Assembly: GCF_937863155.1 (NCBI RefSeq)
Contig: NZ_CALMFB010000054.1
Location: forward strand, 29,975 to 93,974
Source: an uncultured Brevundimonas sp.
GTDB taxonomy: Bacteria; Pseudomonadota; Alphaproteobacteria; Caulobacterales; Caulobacteraceae
DNA length: 64,000 nt
Reading direction: 5' to 3'
Positions 1-62,548 of the stretch are shown here, piece by piece. Made by a program: the position numbers and the translations under genes. Under the pieces are notes generated by a model. It made no database searches and had not been told where the DNA came from. It was given only the letters and a program-made list of their open reading frames with translations. Numbering within the stretch: the first letter of the stretch is position 1; the number at the start of each line of letters is the position of its first letter.

Positions 1-34
1 CGGGATTTCCCCCGGCGCACTCAATCCTCAGCTT
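1..34 (-). ncRNA. Probable group I intron (IC3-like), 5' end only
   Basis: After GGACUU the sequence is AAGCUGAGGAUUGAGUGCGCCGGGGGAAAUCCCG rather than the tRNA 3' half. GAGU can pair with exon ACUU with a U.G pair at the splice site (P1), followed by a GAAA-capped P2-like stem. Truncated by the window edge. Confidence 0.65.
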
Positions 35-69
35 AAGTCCGTTGCGTCTACCAGTTTCGCCACGCCCGC
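33..69. repeat. att direct repeat, left copy
   Basis: ttaagtccgttgcgtctaccagtttcgccacgcccgc. Confidence 0.92.
35..69 (-). tRNA. trnL: tRNA-Leu(UAA) 5' exon (35 nt); remainder lies beyond the left window edge
   Basis: Minus strand reads GCGGGCGTGGCGAAACTGGTAGACGCAACGGACTT: acceptor 5' strand, Leu-type D arm, anticodon 5' stem and loop up to the first anticodon base. Confidence 0.85.
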
Positions 70-82
70 CAGCCGAGCGGGC

Positions 83-112
83 TCTATACCTGCGTTCGTG
101 CCCGCGCGCCAA
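83..112 (-). promoter_or_regulatory. Putative sigma70 promoter for tRNA-Leu, located inside the element
   Basis: TTGGCG (112-107), 18 nt, TATAGA (88-83), then a GC-rich discriminator-like stretch before the tRNA start at 69. Confidence 0.5.
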
Positions 113-258: not shown

Positions 259-1185
259 TTGAGCTTTCTCGTTCCGCTGTCGCCCGCGCCTCCAGTGCCC
301 CCGCCCGGGTGGATGTTCGTTGAGCAGCGCTTCTCGGCCTTCATGCAGGGGCTGGGGATCACAGAGCAACAGGCGGTCGACGGTACACGTAAGCAGACGG
401 GCGTTCGGGCAGCCCTGAATCGCTGGTACTACGGCCATGGCGAGGCGACGCAGAACAGTCTGTTGATCGGGTCCTGGGCCAAAACGCTGAGAGTGGCCCC
501 GCCGCGCGACATCGACGTCCTGTTCTGCATGCCTGTCGATATCTTCCATCGCTACGAGGCCCGCGTCGGCAACCGCCAGTCCCAACTGCTGCAGGAAGTC
601 CGCTCGGCGCTGTCGCAGACCTACCCTCAAACGGCGATCCGTGGAGATGGCCAGGTCGTGGTCGTGCCCTTCGCGACCATGCCCGTCGAGGTCATCCCGG
701 CCTTCCGCCTCGACACCGGCCAATATCTGATCGCCGATGCGAATGGCGGCGGTTCGTACCGCAAGACCGATCCGTGGGCTGAGCTCTCGGTGCTCGAAGC
801 GTCGGATCGCGCAACCTTCGGCTCCACGCGTCGCCTGATCCGGATGGCCAAGCAGTGGCAGCGTCATGCCCATGCGCCGATCAAGTCGTTCATGCTCGAG
901 CGCCTGGCCGTGGCCTTCCTTGAAACCTGGCAGCACGCGACCGCAGGCTATGAGGACTGGATGGTCCGCGACTTCTTCGAGTTCATGCTCCGGTATGTCG
1001 GCGGCTCGGTCCAGATGCCTGGAACCGGTGAGTGGGTATCGATCGGCGACGCCTGGGCGCCGCGAGCGCGAACGGCCTTGGCCACCGCCCAGCGCGCCTG
1101 CCAATATGAGGCGGTAAACGCCGATCGGCGTGCGGGCGCGGAATGGCGCTCGCTGTTCGGCTCCGCGATTGGACCCATGTCATGA
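259..1185 (+). CDS. SMODS-family nucleotidyltransferase (CD-NTase-like cyclic oligonucleotide synthase)
   Basis: GSWAK...PPRDIDV catalytic motif, QSQLLQEVR, RGDGQVVVVPF, third acidic residue in VEVIPAF. Start may be TTG 259 or ATG 313. Confidence 0.85.
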   Translation: MSFLVPLSPAPPVPPPGWMFVEQRFSAFMQGLGITEQQAVDGTRKQTGVRAALNRWYYGHGEATQNSLLIGSWAKTLRVAPPRDIDVLFCMPVDIFHRYEARVGNRQSQLLQEVRSALSQTYPQTAIRGDGQVVVVPFATMPVEVIPAFRLDTGQYLIADANGGGSYRKTDPWAELSVLEASDRATFGSTRRLIRMAKQWQRHAHAPIKSFMLERLAVAFLETWQHATAGYEDWMVRDFFEFMLRYVGGSVQMPGTGEWVSIGDAWAPRARTALATAQRACQYEAVNADRRAGAEWRSLFGSAIGPMS

Positions 1186-1718
1186 CCGATACTGTCAGCC
1201 CGGCTGAAACCGACTCCCGAGACGCCATTCTGGCGGAGGCCCGCCGGCTGGCTGTGGACGCCCTCTATTCGGAGAAGGGTCATTTCGAGGCTGCCAGCGC
1301 CTGGCGCGGCCGCACCTACTCGCTTGGCATTCCCGCAGCGCTCATCAGCGCTACCGCCGGCGCCACCATTCTGGCGGATATGGACCCTGCCATCGGCGGT
1401 TCGCTCGCGCTTGTCGGCGCTGCCATCACAGCCCTGATGACCTTTCTCAATCCTTCCGAACGGGCGTCGCAACACCACCGCAGCGGCGTCTCCTACGGCG
1501 GCCTCCGGCGCGCTCTGCGCCAGTTCGTCCAGATCGACGTCGGCATTATGGACGTTGCGGCGCTCCGGTCGCGCCTGACCGAGCTGACGGAGAAGATCGG
1601 GGCCTTGCAATCCGAGTCGCTGCCGATCCCGTCCGCGGCTCACAAGAAGGCGTTCAAGTCGATCCAGGGCGGATCGGCGGAATACACCCCACAGGAACTG
1701 GCGCTCGCAGGAGGCTAG
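1182..1718 (+). CDS. SLATT-domain 2TM effector
   Basis: ATGA overlap with the synthase stop; two hydrophobic helices followed by FLNPSERASQHHRSGVSY; HFEAA upstream motif. Confidence 0.75.
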   Translation: MTDTVSPAETDSRDAILAEARRLAVDALYSEKGHFEAASAWRGRTYSLGIPAALISATAGATILADMDPAIGGSLALVGAAITALMTFLNPSERASQHHRSGVSYGGLRRALRQFVQIDVGIMDVAALRSRLTELTEKIGALQSESLPIPSAAHKKAFKSIQGGSAEYTPQELALAGG

Positions 1719-2572
1719 AGCCCGAGCGCATCCACGAAGGCTCGGACCTGCCCATAGGCGTCCGTCTGCCACTGCTCCGGAGTACGGTCGCCCAAGGCCG
1801 CGCTTGTCTCTACGAACTCGCGAACGCAGGCAGGTCCGTGGTCATCGACATCCCTGAACTTGCTGGCGATCTTCTCATAGCCCTGAAGAGCGCTAGCCCG
1901 TTCCAGGAGGGGCCGGCAGGCGTCGGCCAGGGCTTCGGGCCCGCCCGGGTAGTTTCGGACGCAATAATAGATGTCGTAGGCGTCCTTGCGCTTGAAGCGG
2001 CCGACGAGGGCGTGGCCTTTCATGCCGAGAAGCGCCGGGATCGAGGCCACTGCGATCTTTACGCGATTGGTCCCCGACCGTCCCGGCATCCGGTCCTCAA
2101 TCTCGACCAAAGCCTGGAAGTCAATCGCCAGATCGGCCCCGTCCGCCTTCTGGACGGCGAAGTCCTCCACGAGCGGCCGCTCCCGCTTCGGCACCTCCGC
2201 GTCCCGCGGCATCAGGAAGTCGACGACAACCTTGATCGGGGGACCGCCATCTTCGGCAGGAACTTCCCGGGTCAGCTGGAACGCCCGATCCTCGGGGCCG
2301 CGCTCGTAGCCATGGGCCTGAAGCGCGTGAACCAGGTCTGCGTATTCGGTATCCGCGAGCGCGACCGGGTCGAGTGCGAGATCGATGTCGAACGTCCCGA
2401 CGTGAATCATGTCGTCCGGCTCGAGCAACAGCCACGGCACAGCGCCGCCGACCACGGCGAACTTGCCTTCATAACTGCCGAGGATCTGGCCGATCTCGAC
2501 GAGGGTCTGGCGGACGGCGGCGGTGCTGCGCGCGGGATAGTCCGCCGCGCTCTGCGGTTCCGGCTTCACCAC
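1715..2572 (-). CDS. AbiEii-like nucleotidyltransferase toxin (type IV TA)
   Basis: VVGGAV...GTFDIDL N-terminal motif and K...R..RKDAYDIY C-terminal motif; coupled to the upstream AbiEi-like gene. Confidence 0.7.
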   Translation of the reverse strand: MVKPEPQSAADYPARSTAAVRQTLVEIGQILGSYEGKFAVVGGAVPWLLLEPDDMIHVGTFDIDLALDPVALADTEYADLVHALQAHGYERGPEDRAFQLTREVPAEDGGPPIKVVVDFLMPRDAEVPKRERPLVEDFAVQKADGADLAIDFQALVEIEDRMPGRSGTNRVKIAVASIPALLGMKGHALVGRFKRKDAYDIYYCVRNYPGGPEALADACRPLLERASALQGYEKIASKFRDVDDHGPACVREFVETSAALGDRTPEQWQTDAYGQVRAFVDALGL

Positions 2573-3642
2573 TGGGACACGCTGGCGAGCAGATGGTCTG
2601 CCGCCTCCTGCCCGCGTTCGCCGCCGGTCCCGAGATCAAGGAAGGTCTGCAGCGGGCTGGTCGTCCAGAGGTCTGGAGCCGGCTGACGCAGATCGTCGAA
2701 CAGCTCGGCCTCGTCGGGGATCAGGATCTCGACATTGGCCCCGCTTTCGGCGGGCTTGAGCTGCAGATGATCGACCAAGGCCGGCAGGGCGCTGGGTTCG
2801 GCGATGAGGTAGGTCATCGGCACGCGTGCGTAAGGCGCCCACCAATCGGCGGCCGTGAAGGACATCGCCGCGGCCCGGCCTGAGGACTGAGCCTCACGCA
2901 GGGCGTATCGCAGCGCCACATCCAGCCGCTTCCCGTGCAGGGTCGTATAGTAGCGCCGCCGCTCCCCAACGGGTGCCTCGTAGGCCTCTCGCCAGCCGCG
3001 CAGGAGACCTTCGCGATCGGTCAGCTGCAGGCCCTCGGAATCGGCCGAGGCCCATTCACGGTCGATCAGCGCGCGCCGCACGTTGCTGACCTGGCCCAGG
3101 CTCACTTGCGCGGCTTCGGCGAGGTCCGTCACCTTCCAGGCCCGACCGGGCGTCTGAAGGAGACAACGGAGAACGCGCGCTGATTTCGGTGCGAACGGCG
3201 ACTTCAGCTCGCGCGCGACTGCCTTGGGCTTCTCGGCCGTCTGCCGGTCGATATAGAGGCCCGGGCCGACGATGCGGACGTTGCCCGCGAGATCGAGCCA
3301 GCCCACGCCGGCCTCGTCACACAGGCGCCGGGCGGCATCCGCCATATAGGGGGCTCCCACGAGCACGATGGACTTCATTCCGAGGTTCGCGGCAGCTTGA
3401 AGCGCCTGATCGACGGCGCTGCGGATCACCCGCGGTTGTCCGGAACTCTTCACCTCCATCAATATCGTGAAGCTTCTGGAGGCGATCGAGACATCGGCGA
3501 TGATATCGACGCGTGGGGCGTCGCCCGGTCCCTCGATATCGAGAGACCGTACCTCTACGGTCGGGACGACGGCGAGTATGTCCCGCAGCTCCCCGGCGAG
3601 AGCGCGTTCAGTCTCTTTCACTGAAAGTTCCATTTTCATCAT
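2566..3642 (-). CDS. AbiEi-like antitoxin/transcription regulator with N-terminal PD-(D/E)xK-like region and wHTH
   Basis: VDIIAD...MEVKSSGQPR; wHTH WKVTDLAEAAQVSLGQVSNV; C-terminal TSPLQTFLDL...ERGQEAA. Start uncertain (3660, 3642 or 3633). Confidence 0.7.
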   Translation of the reverse strand: MMKMELSVKETERALAGELRDILAVVPTVEVRSLDIEGPGDAPRVDIIADVSIASRSFTILMEVKSSGQPRVIRSAVDQALQAAANLGMKSIVLVGAPYMADAARRLCDEAGVGWLDLAGNVRIVGPGLYIDRQTAEKPKAVARELKSPFAPKSARVLRCLLQTPGRAWKVTDLAEAAQVSLGQVSNVRRALIDREWASADSEGLQLTDREGLLRGWREAYEAPVGERRRYYTTLHGKRLDVALRYALREAQSSGRAAAMSFTAADWWAPYARVPMTYLIAEPSALPALVDHLQLKPAESGANVEILIPDEAELFDDLRQPAPDLWTTSPLQTFLDLGTGGERGQEAADHLLASVSQW

Positions 3643-3656
3643 TACGTTGAAATAGG

Positions 3657-3673
3657 CCATTTCACTGAAATGG
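3657..3673. promoter_or_regulatory. Palindromic operator between -35 and -10 of the TA promoter
   Basis: CCATTTCA-C-TGAAATGG; minus strand TTGACC, 17 nt, TATTTC. Second copy CTTTCA-C-TGAAAG at 3615-3627. Confidence 0.65.
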
Positions 3674-3699: not shown

Positions 3700-4995
3700 T
3701 CAGGCACCATTCGAATCCACTGTTTGTCGCTTCGCCGGCTTGGGCTTTCGGACATTGATGGCCGAGGCGTCGAGCACGTTCTTGATGTGAGAGGCGTAGT
3801 ATTTCTCGATCATCTCCACGCTGGTCCGGCAGTTCTTGGCGACCTGATAAATGTCGGCGCCCTCCATGAGCCGCATGGAGATGTAGGTGTGCCGCAGGCT
3901 GTAGGCGGTACGAGGCCTTCCATCCCGGTCCTTCTTCAGGCCGAGTTCGTCCAGGATGGCGTTCAACAGTTCGCGCTGCACCAGACCGAAGACGAGATCG
4001 GTTGGCTGGCCGTTCTTGCGCTTGAGCACCCGTTCGAACGGACGGACGGCTCCGGGCATGCTCTTGCAGTACCCTACCCCACGCTTGCCCCGCACCTCGA
4101 TCTCGAGGATGCGTTCGCCGGTCGCGTCATCCTCAACGATCGAGACGTCTCTGAACTCGAGGCGCTGCGCCTCGTCGGGACGCAGCCCGGTGTTGACCAT
4201 GAACAGCACGAAGTCGTGGAACTGCTCGCACTCGTCGCGCCAGCGCTCCTTTTTCGGGTTCTTCGCGCGCTCGCGCGTCGCTTCGTAGAGGCGCTTGTAC
4301 TCTTCAGGTGAGAACCAAGCCCTGTGGCTCACCTTGCCGGATGCCCGGTACGGGTTGCTCATGTCCGGAAGTGCGGAAATCCACCCTTTCCGGTTCGCGG
4401 TTTTCAGGATCTGCCTAAGACAGACCATCTCGTTATGGAGCGTCTGCCGGCTCGGCCGCTTCCAGATCTTCGCCTTTCCGATCCGTTCTTGCCCCTCCGA
4501 GACGAACCGCACGCGCTGCGGCTCGTCAGGTGGCGTGACACGGTGAAGCCGGTAATCCTGGATCCGGCCGGCGGAGACTTCGGTGATCGGCAAATCGCCG
4601 AAGAACGGGTTGAGGTAGAGACGGATCACCCGCCCCTTCCCAGCGACGTAGTGAGCGTTCCGCTCACCCAACGTCATCGCTTCGAACTCCTTTTCGAAGA
4701 CAGCGGCCGCCTCACGGAAGGTCTTCTCCCCCGGCCGCTTCGGCGTCACACGCTCCGGGACGACGACAGGCATCTCCGGCATCGACGGGAGCTTCCCGGA
4801 CTTGCGGAGACGATCTTCAGCGAGCCGATCGAGATACCAATCGCGCGCGAACTCTCGCGCAAAGGCGACGTTCGTCTCCTTCGTCGACTGACGGTAGTTG
4901 CGGCCGCTCAGATAGGTCGCGCACTGCCAGTATGGGCTGTTTTCGCGACGATAGACGTGGAGCTTGCCCTCCATGAGCGAGTGAGACTCCGACAC
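3700..4995 (-). CDS. Tyrosine recombinase / site-specific integrase
   Basis: TGLRPDEA (Arg), GKRG (Lys), YSLRHTY (H-x-x-R position), MIEKYY (Tyr); adjacent to att. Confidence 0.93.
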   Translation of the reverse strand: MSESHSLMEGKLHVYRRENSPYWQCATYLSGRNYRQSTKETNVAFAREFARDWYLDRLAEDRLRKSGKLPSMPEMPVVVPERVTPKRPGEKTFREAAAVFEKEFEAMTLGERNAHYVAGKGRVIRLYLNPFFGDLPITEVSAGRIQDYRLHRVTPPDEPQRVRFVSEGQERIGKAKIWKRPSRQTLHNEMVCLRQILKTANRKGWISALPDMSNPYRASGKVSHRAWFSPEEYKRLYEATRERAKNPKKERWRDECEQFHDFVLFMVNTGLRPDEAQRLEFRDVSIVEDDATGERILEIEVRGKRGVGYCKSMPGAVRPFERVLKRKNGQPTDLVFGLVQRELLNAILDELGLKKDRDGRPRTAYSLRHTYISMRLMEGADIYQVAKNCRTSVEMIEKYYASHIKNVLDASAINVRKPKPAKRQTVDSNGA

Positions 4996-5089: not shown

Positions 5090-5131
5090 GGATTTTAAGT
5101 CCGTTGCGTCTACCAGTTTCGCCACGCTCGC
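5090..5131 (-). repeat. att direct repeat, right copy (displaced tRNA-Leu 5' half ending GGACTTAAAATCC)
   Basis: ttaagtccgttgcgtctaccagtttcgccacgctcgc at 5095-5131; continues as an intron-less anticodon loop, then non-tRNA sequence. Confidence 0.92.
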
Positions 5132-5137
5132 GGCGGG

Positions 5138-6583
5138 TCAGTGCGCCTGAGTAGCCGCCGGGCGCGTGGCGCGGAAGTCCACGTCGGAATCGGCGATCAG
5201 CATCACCAGGGCGGCCCAGGCGGCGACGTTCTGGGTCATCTGGGCCGGGTCGATCTTATCCAGGGTGTCGTCGGCCGTGTGGTGCAGGTCGAAATAGCGC
5301 GTCCCGTCCTGGCGCAGGCCGAAGACCGGCACGCCCGCCTGGGCCAGCGGCCCGATATCGACGCCGCCATGCAGCTCCGGCTCGCCCGGCAGCACGCCCA
5401 GCGGGCGCAGCACACGCGCGGCGATGCGGCCGAAATCGGTGTCGGCCGATCCGGGCGGCAGGCCCAGGGCGTAGATGCGGTCGGCGCCGAAATCGCTTTC
5501 GCCGGCGATGATGTGCCGTTCCACGCCCTCAGCGCCGATTTCGGCCAGATAGGATGCGCCGCCATAGGCGCGGTCGGTCGGCTGGTTCACCTCTTCGGAG
5601 CCGTACAGGACGACGCGAAGGGTGCGCGCCGGGCGACGGCCGCTGTCCATGATGGCCTTGGCCGCCGCGATGGTGATGGCGCCGCCCGCCGCATCGTCAA
5701 AGGCGCCGGTGCCCAGATCCCAGCTATCCATGTGCGAACCCAGCACGATGATCTCGTTCGGACGCGACCGGCCCGGAACCTCGGCGATCAGATTGTGGGA
5801 CACGGTCTCATAGGTGCGGGCGGTCGAATGCAGGCGCAGCCGCACCGTCTCGCCCAGGGCGACCAGGCGCGACACCTGGTCGGCGTCGGGGGCGCTGAGG
5901 GAGAAGCCGGGAATGGGCACGCGGCCGTCGACATAGCGGGTGGTGCCGGTGTGGGGCATGCGGTGTTCGTCCGTGCCGGCCGAGCGCATGATGAAGGCCA
6001 CCGCCCCCTTGGCCGCCGCCGCCGCCGGACCCGCGCCCCGGATGCGCGACAGCGAGCCATAGCCCGAACCGTCCTGCATCCGCACCATCTGGCCGCCGTC
6101 GACATAGGCGATCTTGCCAGTCAGCGACCCGGCCGGGGCGGCGTTCAGGGCGTCCAGACTGTCGAACCGCACCACCTCGGCCTCGATCCCGCCTTCGGGC
6201 GTGGCGGGCGAATGACCCAGGGCCGCGGCGGCCAGCATCTGGGGGCGGTCGCCGACGATGGCGGCGCTTTCCTGGCCCCGGTCCCAGCCGACCAAGGGAA
6301 ATTCCTGAAGCCGCACATTCTGGAAGCCCAGGCCGCGCAGATAGTCGGCGGCCCAGCGGAAGGCCGCCGTTTCCGCCTCTGACCCCGCCGGGCGGGCGCC
6401 GAAACGGGTGGTGACCTGGGTGACATAGTCCAGCGCCACATTGGCGTTCAGGGCGTCATCGCGCACCTGTTCGGCGGCGCGCACGACGGCGGAGTCCTGG
6501 GCCGCGGCCGGCAGGGCGGTTGCGGCGACGCCGAAGGCCAGGACGACGGACAGGACGGCGGACTGGCGACGAATGCGATTCAC
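5138..6583 (-). CDS. M28 family exported peptidase (carboxypeptidase Q-like)
   Basis: Signal peptide; GSHMDSWD, GAFDDAAG, GSEE and HHTADD zinc motifs; PA-domain insert. Confidence 0.88.
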   Translation of the reverse strand: MNRIRRQSAVLSVVLAFGVAATALPAAAQDSAVVRAAEQVRDDALNANVALDYVTQVTTRFGARPAGSEAETAAFRWAADYLRGLGFQNVRLQEFPLVGWDRGQESAAIVGDRPQMLAAAALGHSPATPEGGIEAEVVRFDSLDALNAAPAGSLTGKIAYVDGGQMVRMQDGSGYGSLSRIRGAGPAAAAAKGAVAFIMRSAGTDEHRMPHTGTTRYVDGRVPIPGFSLSAPDADQVSRLVALGETVRLRLHSTARTYETVSHNLIAEVPGRSRPNEIIVLGSHMDSWDLGTGAFDDAAGGAITIAAAKAIMDSGRRPARTLRVVLYGSEEVNQPTDRAYGGASYLAEIGAEGVERHIIAGESDFGADRIYALGLPPGSADTDFGRIAARVLRPLGVLPGEPELHGGVDIGPLAQAGVPVFGLRQDGTRYFDLHHTADDTLDKIDPAQMTQNVAAWAALVMLIADSDVDFRATRPAATQAH

Positions 6584-6647
6584 GGCTTCAACCCCAAGCA
6601 ATGGAAGGGGCGAAGCCTATCGGGCGGCATGCGCGAAGGTAAGGGCC

Positions 6648-60700: not shown

Positions 60701-62548
60701 GTGACGGCGACCGACGTCTTCGGTTTCACCGGGACGGCCGTCTATGCGCTGGAGATCGGCGTCCCGGTCCCGACGGTTCAGCCGCAGACGGCCACGGCCG
60801 TGGGCGGCCAGAGCGTGACCCTGGACGTCACCCATGGCGTGGTAGGGGTGGATATCACCTCGGTGTCGGTGGTCTCGCCGCCGGCGCATGGGACCGCCGT
60901 CGTCCAGGGAATGAGCATCGTCTATACGGCTCGCGGCGACTTCTCCGGGACCGACAGTTTCACCTACACGGTCAACAATGCGGGCGGGGCCTCGGCGCCC
61001 GGCACGGTGACCATCACCGTCCGTCCCGCCGTGGCGACCGGTCCTGAAAAGACGGTCACCATCCTGGCCGGTCGGACCGCGACGGTGGAGCTGACCGCAG
61101 GCGCCGGCGGCGCGCCCTTCACTGGCGCCGCAGTGGTTTCGGTGGGGCCGGGTCAGGCGGGAACGGCGCGGATCGTATCGCGCACCGGCCAAGGCGGGAT
61201 TCAACTCTATGATCTGGTCTTTACCCCGGCGGACGGCTTCACCGGTGAGGCGACTGTACTTTACACCTTGAGCAACGCCTTCGCGGTCAGCGCTCCAGGC
61301 ACGGTGACCATCACGGTGGAACGCCGTCCAGACGCGGGCGTCGATCCCGAGGTGCGGGGCGTGGCGACCAGCCAGGTGACCGCGGCCGGCCGTTTCGCCG
61401 GCGCCCAGATCAGCAATTTCCAGCGCCGTATGCAGGCCCTGCGCGATGGGACCAATGGCTCGTCCAACGGCCTGAGCCTGAACCTTGTCGGCTCCAGCCG
61501 CGACCGCGACCCACGCATGGCCCTGCGCCGTGAACTGGGACAGCCGGTGACCTCTCTGGATCGAGATGCCCTGAACGACGACCGGGATCGGGAGATGCTG
61601 GTGCTGAATCGGTGGGCCGACCGCCGATCGACCGGTACGACCGGTCCGTCCAGATTCGGCGATCGTCTGAACGCCGCGCCGACGACGACAGATCAGACGC
61701 GCGGCCATTCCATCGGCTTCTGGACGGCCGGTTCGGTCGACTGGGGTCGGGAGGCCGCGGATGGTCAGGACGACAGTCGCTTCACCACTCAAGGGGTGAG
61801 CGCAGGTCTGGATGTTCGGGTCAGCGACCGGCTTATCCTGGGCGGCGGCCTAGGCTACGGCGAGGACCGGACCAGGATCGGGGATCAGGGCGCCCTCAGC
61901 GAAGGCTCGGCCGTCACCGGCGCCCTATACGCCAGCTGGCGTCCGGCCGAGGCCTTTTATATCGACGGCGTGATAGGCTACGCCGACCTGGCCTTCTCTT
62001 CTCGGCGCTGGGTCCAGGGTCTGGGCGGCGATCCTTCAGGCTATGCCTATGGGGACCGTTCGGGCGACATCCTGTTCGCCTCGGCCGCCTTCGGGCGGGT
62101 CATCCGGCGCGCCGCCCTGACCAGCGAAATCTATGCTGGGGTCGATGCGCGCGAGATGACGCTGGATGCTTTCACCGAGACGGGCGCCGGGCTGTCGGCC
62201 CTGGCCTGGGACGCGCTGAAGCAGAGCGGTCTGTCGGCCAATCTGGGCGCGACCCTGCGCTGGAGCCTCGATACCCGGCGCCACGGTCAGATCTGGCCCA
62301 GCGCGCGGGTGGAATGGTCGCATGAACTGGAGCGCATGGGCGACCAGGGGGTCCGCTACGCCGATTGGGCGGGCAGCCCCAGGTATCTGATTCCGCTGGA
62401 TGAATGGTCGCGCAATGCGGTCAATCTGGATCTGGGGCTGGAGTGGTCGCTGAATGAACGGCTGATGCTCAACTTCGGCTACCGGGCGATGTACGGCGAC
62501 GCCAGTTCCAGCCACGGCGGCCAGTTCGGGCTGAAGTACGGATGGTGA
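57737..62548 (+). CDS. Large autotransporter adhesin with IPT/TIG, putative-Ig and Big/cadherin-like repeats
   Basis: Extended signal peptide; PTIS.ISP..GP..G repeats (x3), G.LP.GL.L..G.LSG.PT repeats, G.DSFTY repeats, C-terminal beta-barrel ending in W. Confidence 0.9.
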   Translation: MAGRECETVRARRNACRAARWLGAVLARSSRATCGAIFNGLVALALVAGVLMAGSPAQAQTETFDQDGRTIEYSTGHYGSVGMGHYLIQDGSGEYVMMFYKPVNVPAGRTYTSASVSYRYDVGHGAGNAVNITLMSTEATYDAAGFSLIRTSPSVGGFILQSGSGVATTSLSNTVVNEMNRLSADGGGWLYLGVSMASPSASVSASAYPFDVVAEFAVPQPTISSISPNSGPTSGGATVTITGTNLADASAVTFGGNAATHFTATATSISAEVPARAAGAVAVVVTTPGGTATGAYTYVGAPTISTISPNSGPATGLQTVVITGTNLATTTAVAFNGAAAAIISRSDTELRVTSPAQAAGAVTVTVTTPGGSATGGYTYVAAPTITTISPDVGPTSGVYTVTVTGTNLEGATSITFGGVTGAIMGRSATQLQVAGPALYTPRTVDVVVTTPGGTATAVNGFTAADKPVAGDVTYGPLIPYNTGTATPTIFSLAANVTNNPTRYAVGSTTTAQGGTVGIDDAGQVSYTPPVGYRDATDTFTYTASNAIGASDPATVTVRIGNPAFTIALPAASGRVGEPYNSAGAPLTVTGGRAPYVDFSATGLPDGLSMNSAGVISGTPTGLANASILITLNDSSTGSGPATAFSLRYLTIDPPNLTLSPAAGALPGALQHAAYSQTFSAAGGTPDYSYTLRGGALPAGLTLSAGGVLSGTPTQRGTFTFTIRATDSSRGGVFHIDNAYSLEVVLPAPPTAGAVATTVAANSSGNRLTPVLGGPQADSIAVAQGPAHGVVTVSGLTFLYTPTAGYSGDDSFTYVATNAGGDSVSATVTVTVTPPVLALGDLSPATAEATTPYGAILTASLGTGPYSFAVSNGALPRDVTLSPDGVLSGAPTVAGAFSFEVRATDVHGATGTRAYTLQVDAPSVRPAPAEGALPGGLLTMAYSQTLTATGGVGPYSWAVTGGQLPAGLTLATGGGLTGTPTLAGSHSFTVTATDVFGFTGTAVYALEIGVPVPTVQPQTATAVGGQSVTLDVTHGVVGVDITSVSVVSPPAHGTAVVQGMSIVYTARGDFSGTDSFTYTVNNAGGASAPGTVTITVRPAVATGPEKTVTILAGRTATVELTAGAGGAPFTGAAVVSVGPGQAGTARIVSRTGQGGIQLYDLVFTPADGFTGEATVLYTLSNAFAVSAPGTVTITVERRPDAGVDPEVRGVATSQVTAAGRFAGAQISNFQRRMQALRDGTNGSSNGLSLNLVGSSRDRDPRMALRRELGQPVTSLDRDALNDDRDREMLVLNRWADRRSTGTTGPSRFGDRLNAAPTTTDQTRGHSIGFWTAGSVDWGREAADGQDDSRFTTQGVSAGLDVRVSDRLILGGGLGYGEDRTRIGDQGALSEGSAVTGALYASWRPAEAFYIDGVIGYADLAFSSRRWVQGLGGDPSGYAYGDRSGDILFASAAFGRVIRRAALTSEIYAGVDAREMTLDAFTETGAGLSALAWDALKQSGLSANLGATLRWSLDTRRHGQIWPSARVEWSHELERMGDQGVRYADWAGSPRYLIPLDEWSRNAVNLDLGLEWSLNERLMLNFGYRAMYGDASSSHGGQFGLKYGW

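What the first reader, a model, noticed from the sequence alone, without database searches (positions are those of the whole stretch)
1..38. Probable group I intron in an alphaproteobacterial tRNA-Leu(UAA), with the integration site next to the splice junction
Seen: the tRNA sequence breaks exactly after the first anticodon U (35-nt exon). The next bases offer GAGU to pair with exon ACUU (U.G at the junction) and a GAAA-capped stem. Established: this is the insertion point and P1/P2 layout of IC3 introns in cyanobacterial and plastid trnL(UAA); the tRNA introns reported in proteobacteria are mostly in other tRNAs. Inference: an attP modelled on an intron-less tRNA can only match this gene through the 5' exon plus 2 nt, which may explain the unusual 5'-half duplication. 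Only 34 nt are visible.
Basis: partly seen in the sequence, partly recalled or inferred. Interest (0 to 1): 0.72.

Follow-up and report, generated by a model that had tools for sequence, protein, structure and literature searches.

The report
Intron-split spare tRNA-Leu on a conjugative element
The group I (self-splicing type) intron is real, but the leucine tRNA gene that holds it is a spare copy carried by an ~80-kb conjugative element that cut the host's own intron-less copy in two; both halves of this design are known, their combination is little described.

Summary
Observation confirmed. On the minus strand, a tRNA-Leu(UAA) gene breaks after U34 (5' exon, window 69-35). Rfam's group I model matches end to end (E 1.6e-8, below its curated cut-off). 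Across 76 related pre-tRNAs, P1-P9 form 96% standard pairs, with 22 compensated pairs. The U.G splice-site pair and the terminal G never vary.

The integration reading is not supported. The second "5' half" (window 5131-5090) is not a duplication of this gene. It is the orphaned 5' half of a different, resident, intron-less tRNA-Leu(UAA) allele. Its 3' half lies on contig C73. Joining the halves at the shared 12-bp core GACTTAAAATCC gives exactly a relative's tRNA (85/85). Between them lies an ~80-kb conjugative element (tyrosine integrase, defence cargo, ArdC, DnaE2/ImuB, type IV secretion). The intron-bearing gene is its spare and the genome's only tRNA-Leu(UAA).

In a class-wide sample, all 8 integrase homologues behind an orphan Leu(UAA) half had an intron-bearing spare. 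The intron class and disrupt-and-replace integration are both in print. Whether the intron shields the spare from the integrase is untested.

The parts
1..34 (-). First 34 nt of the 222-nt group I intron: P1 3' strand (internal guide UUGAGU) and most of P2 with its GAAA loop. The remaining 188 nt lie left of the window (C54:29974-29787), followed by the 3' exon C54:29786-29736.
35..69 (-). 5' exon (35 nt) of the element-borne tRNA-Leu(UAA), ending at anticodon U34.
70..112 (-). Upstream region of the spare gene, with a promoter-like TATAGA about 20 nt before the tRNA start. It is conserved upstream of the intron-bearing genes of relatives G020, G003 and G021. A promoter role is inferred.
   Evidence: upstream 40 nt aligned by eye; inference
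259..1185 (+). Cargo between integrase and spare tRNA: SMODS nucleotidyltransferase.
   Evidence: PF18144, E 2.3e-28
1143..1718 (+). Cargo: SLATT-domain protein, overlapping the SMODS gene.
   Evidence: NF033632, E 5e-34
1715..2572 (-). Cargo: AbiEii-like nucleotidyltransferase toxin.
   Evidence: PF08843, E 5.9e-8
2566..3660 (-). Cargo: AbiEi-like antitoxin/regulator.
   Evidence: PF09952, E 5.6e-6
3700..4995 (-). Divergent tyrosine integrase of the element, single copy in the genome.
   Evidence: PF00589, 24.6 bits, below the cut-off of 27.1; 5 of 8 homologues match PF00589, 4 match SAM-like N domains; invariant R271, K303, R367, H368, Y399
5090..5131 (-). attL: orphaned 5' half (42 nt) of the resident intron-less tRNA-Leu(UAA), allele GCGAGCG.... 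Window 5090-5101 is the 12-bp core GACTTAAAATCC shared with attR (own genome C73:14795-14731).
5138..6601 (-). Chromosomal flank: M28-family peptidase gene. It lies upstream of tRNA-Leu(UAA) in relatives with and without the element.

Best explanation
Window 69..1 (minus strand) is the start of a complete tRNA-Leu(UAA) gene interrupted between U34 and A35 by a 222-nt group I intron of the IC3 kind. The intron has no reading frame of its own.

Inferred splicing: the transcript folds into P1-P9. Guanosine attacks after the U of the U.G pair in P1. The terminal G then takes the same site, and the exons are joined into a normal 86-nt tRNA.

The gene does not belong to the chromosome. It is the spare carried by an ~80-kb integrative conjugative element, about 5 kb from the element's integrase end. 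The tyrosine integrase recombined a 12-bp core (GACTTAAAATCC, the anticodon loop plus flanking bases) with the resident intron-less tRNA-Leu(UAA). The resident gene was cut in two and not rebuilt, which is shown directly by the sequence. The cell's reading of UUA codons should therefore depend on the spliced spare (inferred).

The intron most likely travels as an inherited passenger of the integrase-tRNA cassette. When such elements decay, the intron-bearing gene stays behind. That would explain its patchy occurrence in this genus.
For: Intron:
- ARAGORN with introns gives a canonical cloverleaf after removing 222 nt.
- Rfam RF00028 matches model positions 1-253 with E 1.6e-8.
- On 76 pre-tRNAs, the structure I wrote gives 96.1% standard pairs against 26-41% when slid, 22 pairs with changes on both sides, and 0 of 500 shuffles as high. 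U.G is present in 76 of 76.

Cargo status:
- The orphan 5' half (window 5131-5090) and the orphan 3' half (C73:14795-14731) join at the core into a tRNA identical (85/85) to relative G015's gene.
- Codon third-position G+C drops from about 0.87 to about 0.75 at the C73 junction.
- In G019 the same layout lies on one contig: attL, integrase (90% identical), intron gene and attR span 89.8 kb. It is syntenic with C54:35068-1 followed by C73:59592-14796.
- G013 has a 20-kb version.
- Element genes include ArdC, ImuB/DnaE2, a ParB-like protein, VirB4/TrbE, TrbL, TrbI and VirD4.
- No other tRNA-Leu(UAA) is present in the assembly. UUA occurs in about 10% of long reading frames.

Recurrence:
- 8 of 8 integrase homologues that lie behind an orphan Leu(UAA) half are followed by an intron-bearing spare.
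- G020, G003 and G037 keep only scars.

Expression: RNA-library contigs hold the whole precursor, ending within 1 nt of both tRNA ends.
Against: - Splicing was not seen. Only unspliced precursors appear in the assembled RNA contigs, and no spliced joint of this allele was found.
- The Rfam score (41.3 bits) is below the curated cut-off of 50.
- The element is split over two contigs in this draft, so its continuity rests on synteny with G019.
- The chromosomal flank beyond attR (C73:1-14730) is not next to tRNA-Leu in the relatives I fetched. The empty site is therefore shown by the tRNA halves and the upstream flank only.
- No relaxase was identified.
- Most intron-bearing Leu(UAA) genes elsewhere show neither an integrase nor an orphan half nearby. 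In the pattern scan, 12 of 69 had an integrase homologue and 9 of 69 an orphan half.
Confidence: 0.85

Rival explanations
1. Shield reading. The intron is kept in the spare because it splits the integrase's crossover core (GACTT|AAAATCC) at the DNA level. The element's own tRNA gene then cannot act as a second attB for its own or a sister integrase, while the RNA still gives a normal tRNA.
For: - The splice site lies inside the 12-bp core.
- All 8 Leu(UAA)-targeting cassettes in an even sample of 401 alphaproteobacterial genomes carry the intron.
- A relative aimed at tRNA-Leu(CAA) has an intron-less spare whose stem next to the loop differs from its target's (CA-loop-TG against GA-loop-TC).
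Against: - The 8 cassettes share ancestry (integrases 57-93% identical), so they may amount to one event.
- The CAA relative keeps the identical 7-nt loop without any intron.
- Most intron-bearing Leu(UAA) genes have no integrase nearby.
That is a lead, not evidence.
- No recombination assay exists.
Confidence: 0.15
2. First reader's model. A 5-kb defence island integrated into the 5' exon of the chromosomal intron-bearing gene and duplicated its 5' half, because its attP copies an intron-less tRNA.
For: A 37-nt repeat with one mismatch flanks the integrase and the defence genes. The distal copy reads through an intron-less loop.
Against: - The distal copy is another allele, and its partner 3' half lies on C73 behind 45 kb of element DNA.
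- DNA downstream of the intron gene is syntenic with G019's element.
- The orphan halves vary with the genome, while the spare does not.
- The 40 nt upstream of the spare are conserved in G020, which has no integrase.
Confidence: 0.03
3. The intron-bearing gene is a decayed or inactive copy, and UUA is read by some other means.
For: No spliced product was seen. The Rfam score is below its cut-off.
Against: - All core helices, the U.G pair and the terminal G are kept, with compensatory changes across 76 genes.
- It is the only tRNA-Leu(UAA) in a 99.6%-complete assembly.
- The decayed copy on C43 shows what decay looks like.
Confidence: 0.04

Closest known systems
Group I intron of tRNA-Leu(UAA), class 'Leu.3Ug' (classical in cyanobacteria and plastids; catalogued across bacterial phyla by Williams 2020, bioRxiv 10.1101/2020.01.27.920355), subgroup IC3 like the Azoarcus tRNA-Ile intron
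   Same: - Same insertion point (CUU/intron/AAAA), U at -1 and G at the intron end.
- Small size and no reading frame.
- P1-P9 core with GAAA loops on P2 and P9b and a CCUAAG...UAUGG-type receptor in P8.
   Different: The gene sits on a conjugative element rather than being a chromosomal housekeeping gene.
tRNA-dependent lysogeny of actinobacteriophages (Guerrero-Bustamante and Hatfull 2024, PMC10865867)
   Same: A tyrosine integrase recombines a short (~10 bp) core inside a tRNA gene. [quoted passage not shown]
   Different: Here the carrier is an ~80-kb conjugative element, not a phage, and the spare tRNA is interrupted by a group I intron at the core. Whether the spare is required has not been tested.
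ICEMh1/ICEPmu1-like elements of Pasteurellaceae (PMC6861422)
   Same: Conjugative elements with an 11-bp direct repeat (GATTCAAAATC) that is the anticodon loop of a tRNA-Leu. Disrupted and full-length copies lie at the ends.
   Different: Their target is tRNA-Leu(CAA), and no intron is reported. The integrase family was not compared.
Archaeal tRNA gene disruption by integrating elements (Caldiarchaeum tRNA-Thr, PMC3293823), and the Randau-Soll idea that tRNA introns guard against integration (cited in PMC4390854)
   Same: A 5' tRNA fragment, then a recombinase gene, then an intron-containing tRNA 1.8 kb downstream. Also the proposal that interrupted tRNA genes are poor integration targets.
   Different: Archaeal introns are cut by a protein endonuclease, not by a ribozyme, and the case is in a different domain of life.

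Membership tests
Group I intron (Rfam RF00028) | 5' splice site after a U that forms a U.G wobble in P1 with an internal guide sequence | tested here: met
   ACUU|AA pairs with UUGAGU. The U.G pair is present in 76 of 76 aligned genes.
Group I intron (Rfam RF00028) | Terminal G before the 3' splice site, with exons that join into a functional RNA | tested here: met
   The intron ends ...GGUACG|AAAAUCCGU. The G is invariant in alignment A2. The joined exons give a canonical tRNA-Leu cloverleaf.
Group I intron (Rfam RF00028) | Conserved core P3-P9 with the P3/P7 pseudoknot, supported by covariation | tested here: met
   54 pairs form 96.1% standard pairs, and 22 pairs change on both sides. Slid controls give 26-41%, and 0 of 500 shuffles score as high. 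P4 and P7 are invariant, so they are uninformative.
Group I intron (Rfam RF00028) | Score at or above Rfam's gathering cut-off | tested here: not met
   41.3 bits against 50. The match is full-length with E 1.6e-8. Williams 2020 notes that the Rfam seed holds no bacterial tRNA introns and used 18-20 bits. This is a curated threshold, not a biological feature.
Group I intron (Rfam RF00028) | Guanosine-dependent self-splicing; spliced product in vivo | tested here: inconclusive
   RNA-library contigs show only the unspliced, end-trimmed precursor. Short, modified mature tRNA is not expected in such contigs. The biochemistry cannot be tested here.
IC3 subgroup / 'Leu.3Ug' class | Insertion between anticodon-loop positions 3 and 4 of tRNA-Leu(UAA); no P5abc; GAAA loops docking to 11-nt-type receptors | tested here: met
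   Position 35/36 of the gene. P5 is short, P2 and P9b are GAAA-capped, and P8 carries (C/U)CUAAG...UAUG(G/A). The subgroup criteria are taken from my own knowledge of the Azoarcus and Anabaena introns.
Disrupt-and-replace integrative elements (tRNA-dependent lysogeny type) | Tyrosine integrase next to the attachment site | tested here: met
   PF00589 E 2.5e-5, though below the cut-off. 5 of 8 homologues match it, and R-K-R-H-Y residues are invariant. No NCBIfam or PDB sequence match was found.
Disrupt-and-replace integrative elements (tRNA-dependent lysogeny type) | Short common core inside a tRNA gene; the gene is not rebuilt at either junction | tested here: met
   The 12-bp core is GACTTAAAATCC. 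attL holds only tRNA positions 1-42 and attR only the 3' part. Joined, they give an intact tRNA.
Disrupt-and-replace integrative elements (tRNA-dependent lysogeny type) | The element encodes a tRNA with the same anticodon as the one destroyed | tested here: met
   The intron-bearing tRNA-Leu(UAA) lies inside the element in G000, G019 and G013.
Disrupt-and-replace integrative elements (tRNA-dependent lysogeny type) | The spare tRNA is required for survival of cells that carry the element | not testable with these tools
   Indirect only: there is no other tRNA-Leu(UAA) in the assembly, and 243 UUA codons occur in 221 of 2207 long reading frames.
Integrative conjugative element | Type IV secretion genes, coupling protein and relaxase within the att-bounded DNA | tested here: inconclusive
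   VirB4/TrbE, TrbL, TrbI and VirD4/TraG were found on the C73 part, and ArdC on the C54 part. No relaxase was identified among the proteins scanned, and not all reading frames were scanned.

The most novel reading that the evidence does not exclude
The intron is more than a passenger. By splitting the integrase's crossover core, it would make the element's spare tRNA gene invisible to its own and to sister integrases.

Integrase-driven replacement of intron-less resident genes, followed by decay of the element, would then be a main route by which endonuclease-less group I introns spread among bacterial tRNA-Leu(UAA) genes. This genus shows the whole series: a complete 80-90-kb element, a 20-kb element, then an orphan half alone, then only the old promoter.
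Probability: 0.15. Interest if true: 0.8.

Novelty: new variant of a known kind. Interest (0 to 1): 0.55.

Why it matters
- Standard annotation misses both the intron and the tRNA. Default ARAGORN finds nothing, and the Rfam score is below its cut-off. Genomes with this element therefore seem to lack tRNA-Leu(UAA).
- If the reading is right, decoding of UUA in this bacterium depends on a ribozyme delivered by a conjugative element.
- The genus-level series of intact and decayed elements gives a concrete, testable route for the patchy, horizontal distribution of group I introns that have no homing endonuclease. That question has been open since the 1990s.
- The exact coincidence of splice site and crossover core makes the old 'introns guard tRNA genes from integration' idea testable in bacteria with a simple recombination assay.

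Tried and rejected
- Default ARAGORN on the window and on the extended locus found no tRNA there. ARAGORN with introns over the whole genome gives dozens of false intron calls, so only the Leu(taa) call, which Rfam supports, was used.
- RNA evidence for splicing: two run searches and two layings gave only assembled contigs. These held unspliced precursors and other organisms' intron-less tRNAs. The one 'skip' joint came from another organism's intron-less gene.
Both fell once the two alleles and the C73 half were seen.
- The empty-site test on the downstream flank failed. C73:10001-14731 has no match next to tRNA-Leu in the fetched relatives, and G015's downstream flank maps to C25.
- Literature: I could not retrieve the 2002 report of a gammaproteobacterial tRNA-Leu(UAA) intron that I recall, Vepritskiy et al., J Bacteriol. 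Searches for group I intron with integrase/attB, and for tmrB with intron, gave nothing relevant.
- The integrase has no NCBIfam match and no PDB sequence match, even with a profile.
- I did not build a covariance model, because the MAFFT alignment was already good enough for pair counting.

Full report
**1. What is at the coordinates**

The minus strand of window 69..35 is the first 35 nt of a tRNA-Leu gene, ending at the first anticodon base. Window 34..1 is not tRNA. The window is C54:29975-93974 of a 77-contig assembly.

Reading leftwards, ARAGORN with introns allowed finds one gene. It is tRNA-Leu(taa), with a 35-nt 5' exon, a 222-nt intron and the 3' exon AAAATCCGTCGGGCATTGCCCATGCCGGTTCGACCCCGGCCGCCCGCACCA. 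Default ARAGORN sees nothing there.

**2. Is it a group I intron?**

Rfam's Intron_gpI model matches over its full length (positions 1-253). The E-value is 1.6e-8 and the score 41.3 bits, below the curated cut-off of 50. Williams 2020 notes that this model's seed has no bacterial tRNA introns, and he worked at 18-20 bits.

I wrote the helices by hand from the sequence:
- P1: ACUUAA/UUGAGU, with U.G at the splice site.
- P2: capped by GAAA.
- P3: 79-84/159-164.
- P4, a short P5, and P6.
- P7: GACUA/UAGUC, with the bulged A.
- P8: carries a UCUAAG...UAUGA receptor-type internal loop.
- P9, and P9b capped by GAAA.

I counted these helices on an alignment of 76 pre-tRNA-Leu(UAA) genes.
- 96.1% of cells form standard pairs, against 26-41% when the partners are slid.
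- 22 of 54 pairs change on both sides.
- None of 500 shuffles reaches the observed values.
- The U.G pair is present in 76 of 76 genes, and the terminal G never varies.
- P4 and P7 never vary, so they say nothing either way.

The intron has no room for a protein. This is an ordinary IC3-type tRNA-Leu(UAA) intron, of the class Williams calls Leu.3Ug.

**3. Expression**

Contigs from RNA libraries contain the whole unspliced precursor and stop within 1 nt of both tRNA ends.
- In X24, a 364-nt contig is flanked by a T-run (poly(A) in the RNA sense) and by letters that I recognise from memory as a template-switch adapter.
- X29 (a metatranscriptome) and X31 (an oligo-dT library) hold 286-288-nt contigs that start at the tRNA 3' end.

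The gene is therefore transcribed and end-trimmed. No spliced joint of this allele was visible, which is expected for short, modified tRNA in assembled contigs. Splicing remains inferred.

**4. The second '5' half' is another gene**

The 37-nt exon word recurs at window 5131..5095 with one mismatch. It reads on through an intron-less anticodon loop, GGACTTAAAATCC, before turning into unrelated, A+T-richer DNA next to an integrase gene.

The genus has two tRNA-Leu(UAA) alleles:
- Allele I: GCGGGCG...GCCGGTTCGACCCCGGCCGCCCGC.
- Allele II: GCGAGCG...GCGGGTTCGACCCCCGCCGCTCGC.

The intron-bearing gene is allele I at both ends. The upstream copy is allele II.

The missing allele-II 3' half lies on another contig. 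C73:14795..14731 reads GACTTAAAATCCGTCGACTTCGGTCATGCGGGTTCGACCCCCGCCGCTCGCACCA and is preceded by A+T-richer DNA. Joining the two halves at the shared 12-bp core GACTTAAAATCC gives a tRNA identical, 85 of 85, to the intact gene of relative G015.

G015 and other relatives have the same M28 peptidase gene upstream of their tRNA-Leu(UAA). The resident intron-less gene was therefore cut in its anticodon loop and not rebuilt.

**5. What cut it**

In relative G019, everything lies on one contig. In order it holds the peptidase flank, an orphan 5' half, the integrase (90% identical), the intron-bearing gene, about 87 kb of further DNA, and an orphan 3' half. Its orphan halves are G019's own allele (stem GCAGA/TCTGC), and they also join into a perfect tRNA.

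The element arms next to the core are homologous in the two genomes. At attL they read ACTACCGTAGATTTACGTAT. At attR they read ...AGTATCAGTGGTTTGATGCTGGCGTGTGT. CTTACACA repeats lie near both.

G019's 89.8-kb element is syntenic with C54:35068->1 followed by C73:59592->14796. The element here is thus at least 79.9 kb, and about 82 kb if the gap matches G019.

Genes found on the element:
- Between integrase and tRNA: AbiEi/AbiEii and a SMODS-SLATT pair.
- On the C54 part: a Shedu-type nuclease, a HEPN/nucleotidyltransferase protein, a ParB-like protein, DnaE2 with ImuB, and ArdC.
- On the C73 part: an RND pump, a P-type ATPase, and VirB4/TrbE, TrbL, TrbI and VirD4.

Third-position G+C falls from about 0.87 to about 0.75 at the C73 junction. 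This is an integrative conjugative element, and the intron-bearing tRNA is one of its genes. No relaxase was identified.

**6.

The intron call is right. The integration idea is not. There is no 37-bp duplication produced by integration into the intron-bearing gene. The similarity is simply that of two alleles of one tRNA. The true repeat is the 12-bp core, and the target was the intron-less gene.

**7. Distribution**

Within the genus:
- 6 of 25 genomes have the intron-bearing gene, at 79-100% identity. The others have intron-less genes.
- G000 and G019 hold complete elements.
- G013 holds a 20-kb element with a 50%-identical integrase.
- G021 has an orphan half plus an integrase.
- G003 has a truncated orphan half and no integrase.
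- G020 keeps only the resident gene's old promoter, followed by the intron-bearing gene.
- G037, from another family of the order, has an orphan half 194 nt upstream.

More widely:
By ARAGORN, 69 of them are tRNA-Leu(UAA) genes. They come from many Alphaproteobacteria, some Gammaproteobacteria and Acidobacteriota.
- Of those 69, 12 have a homologue or remnant of this integrase just upstream, and 9 have an orphan intron-less half. Most show neither.
- In an even sample of 401 alphaproteobacterial genomes, 19 have an integrase homologue. All 8 that lie behind an orphan Leu(UAA) half are followed by an intron-bearing Leu(UAA) gene.
- Relatives lie next to tRNA-Met. One, aimed at tRNA-Leu(CAA), carries an intron-less spare with the same 7-nt loop but a different stem.

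**8. How it most likely works**

Shown:
- The gene structure and the conserved ribozyme fold.
- The cut resident gene and the 12-bp core.
- The element's content, and the spare as the only tRNA-Leu(UAA) in the assembly.

Inferred:
- Self-splicing.
- Dependence of UUA decoding on the spare. There are 243 UUA codons in 221 of 2207 long reading frames.
- Restoration of the resident gene on excision.
- Spread of the intron by element-driven gene replacement followed by element decay.

The splice site lies inside the crossover core. The intron-bearing DNA therefore offers only GACTTAA... on one side and ...AAAATCC on the other. It is attractive to think that this shields the spare from the integrase. 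My data cannot separate that from simple shared descent of one cassette, and the CAA relative manages without an intron. I give the shield reading about 15%.

**9. Comparison with what is known**

- The intron class is catalogued (Williams 2020). Reviews list tRNA group I introns in cyanobacteria and in a few alpha- and beta-proteobacteria.
- Integration that breaks a tRNA gene at a ~10-bp core and brings a same-isotype tRNA is described for actinobacteriophages (PMC10865867).
- ICEMh1-like elements use an 11-bp anticodon-loop repeat in tRNA-Leu(CAA) (PMC6861422).
- An archaeal parallel exists: a 5' fragment, a recombinase, then an intron-containing tRNA (PMC3293823). So does the integration-guard idea (PMC4390854).
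- I found no paper that describes a ribozyme-interrupted spare on a conjugative element.
- Earlier notes of this scan report the same design in other genomes. I reached my reading before reading them.

**10. Verdict**

The intron interpretation is supported, and the integration interpretation is replaced. The intron is a new member of a known class. Its setting as the spare of a disrupt-and-replace conjugative element is a variant of a known strategy. Interest is moderate.

Noticed in passing
PLSDB plasmids, e.g. NC_004464.2 (pCTX-M3) 61823-62120 = L190:4001-4298: A complete, unannotated, intron-bearing tRNA-Leu(UAA) gene about 78% identical to this one lies beside the aac(3)-IId / AAA-ATPase (tmrB-like) module. 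It occurs on 1283 plasmid records (Escherichia 486, Klebsiella 357, Salmonella 114, Acinetobacter 78, and others). Rfam gives 36.8 bits (E 1e-7), and P7 shows a compensated A-U to G-C change. About 160 nt upstream, CCAGCGGACTTAAAAAGTC looks like a decayed orphan-half scar. Earlier notes of this scan report the same.
   Followed up: partly
own genome C43:45518-45633 (outside the window): A decayed partial copy of the intron's 3' part (P8 3' strand to P9) plus the 3' exon. It is 83-92% identical to the spare, with a damaged acceptor end (…CGCCCCCACCG). It is probably the remnant of an older intron-bearing gene. No integrase homologue is nearby.
   Followed up: partly
window 259-3660: A SMODS-SLATT pair and an AbiEi/AbiEii pair are inserted between the integrase and the spare tRNA. 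In most relatives the tRNA follows the integrase within about 100 nt, so this is a cargo slot inside the cassette.
   Followed up: partly
L002:1500-1809 (own pre-tRNA) in run X24: A 364-nt RNA-library contig holds the unspliced precursor with both ends trimmed to within 1 nt of the tRNA ends. It is followed by a poly(A)-like run, so an end-matured, polyadenylated, unspliced precursor exists in that sample.
   Followed up: partly
loci L022-L140 (pattern scan): The same P7/P3' core word also occurs inside genes that ARAGORN calls tRNA-Arg(CCU), tRNA-Ser (several anticodons), tRNA-Phe and tRNA-Thr. These calls come from Alphaproteobacteria and Acidobacteriota. The anticodon calls were not checked.
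   Followed up: no
L172, L173, L178, L180-L185 (integrase homologues in other Alphaproteobacteria): Many relatives of this integrase lie just behind a tRNA-Met(CAT) gene. In one genome (L185) a second tRNA-Met follows the integrase. The integrase-plus-tRNA cassette design may therefore extend to other tRNAs.
   Followed up: no
own genome C54:1-29735 and C73:14796-59592: Cargo of the element includes ImuB-DnaE2 (error-prone polymerase genes), ArdC, a Shedu SduA-like protein, a HEPN/nucleotidyltransferase protein, DUF3800, DUF4238, an RND efflux pump, a P-type ATPase and a TonB-dependent receptor.
   Followed up: partly
NZ_CP094524.1 6503-6792 (Bradyrhizobium conjugative plasmid), L191: A complete intron-bearing tRNA-Leu(UAA) gene (204-nt intron) lies on 317-kb Bradyrhizobium plasmids, about 750 nt from trbI. 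No feature is annotated there.
   Followed up: no
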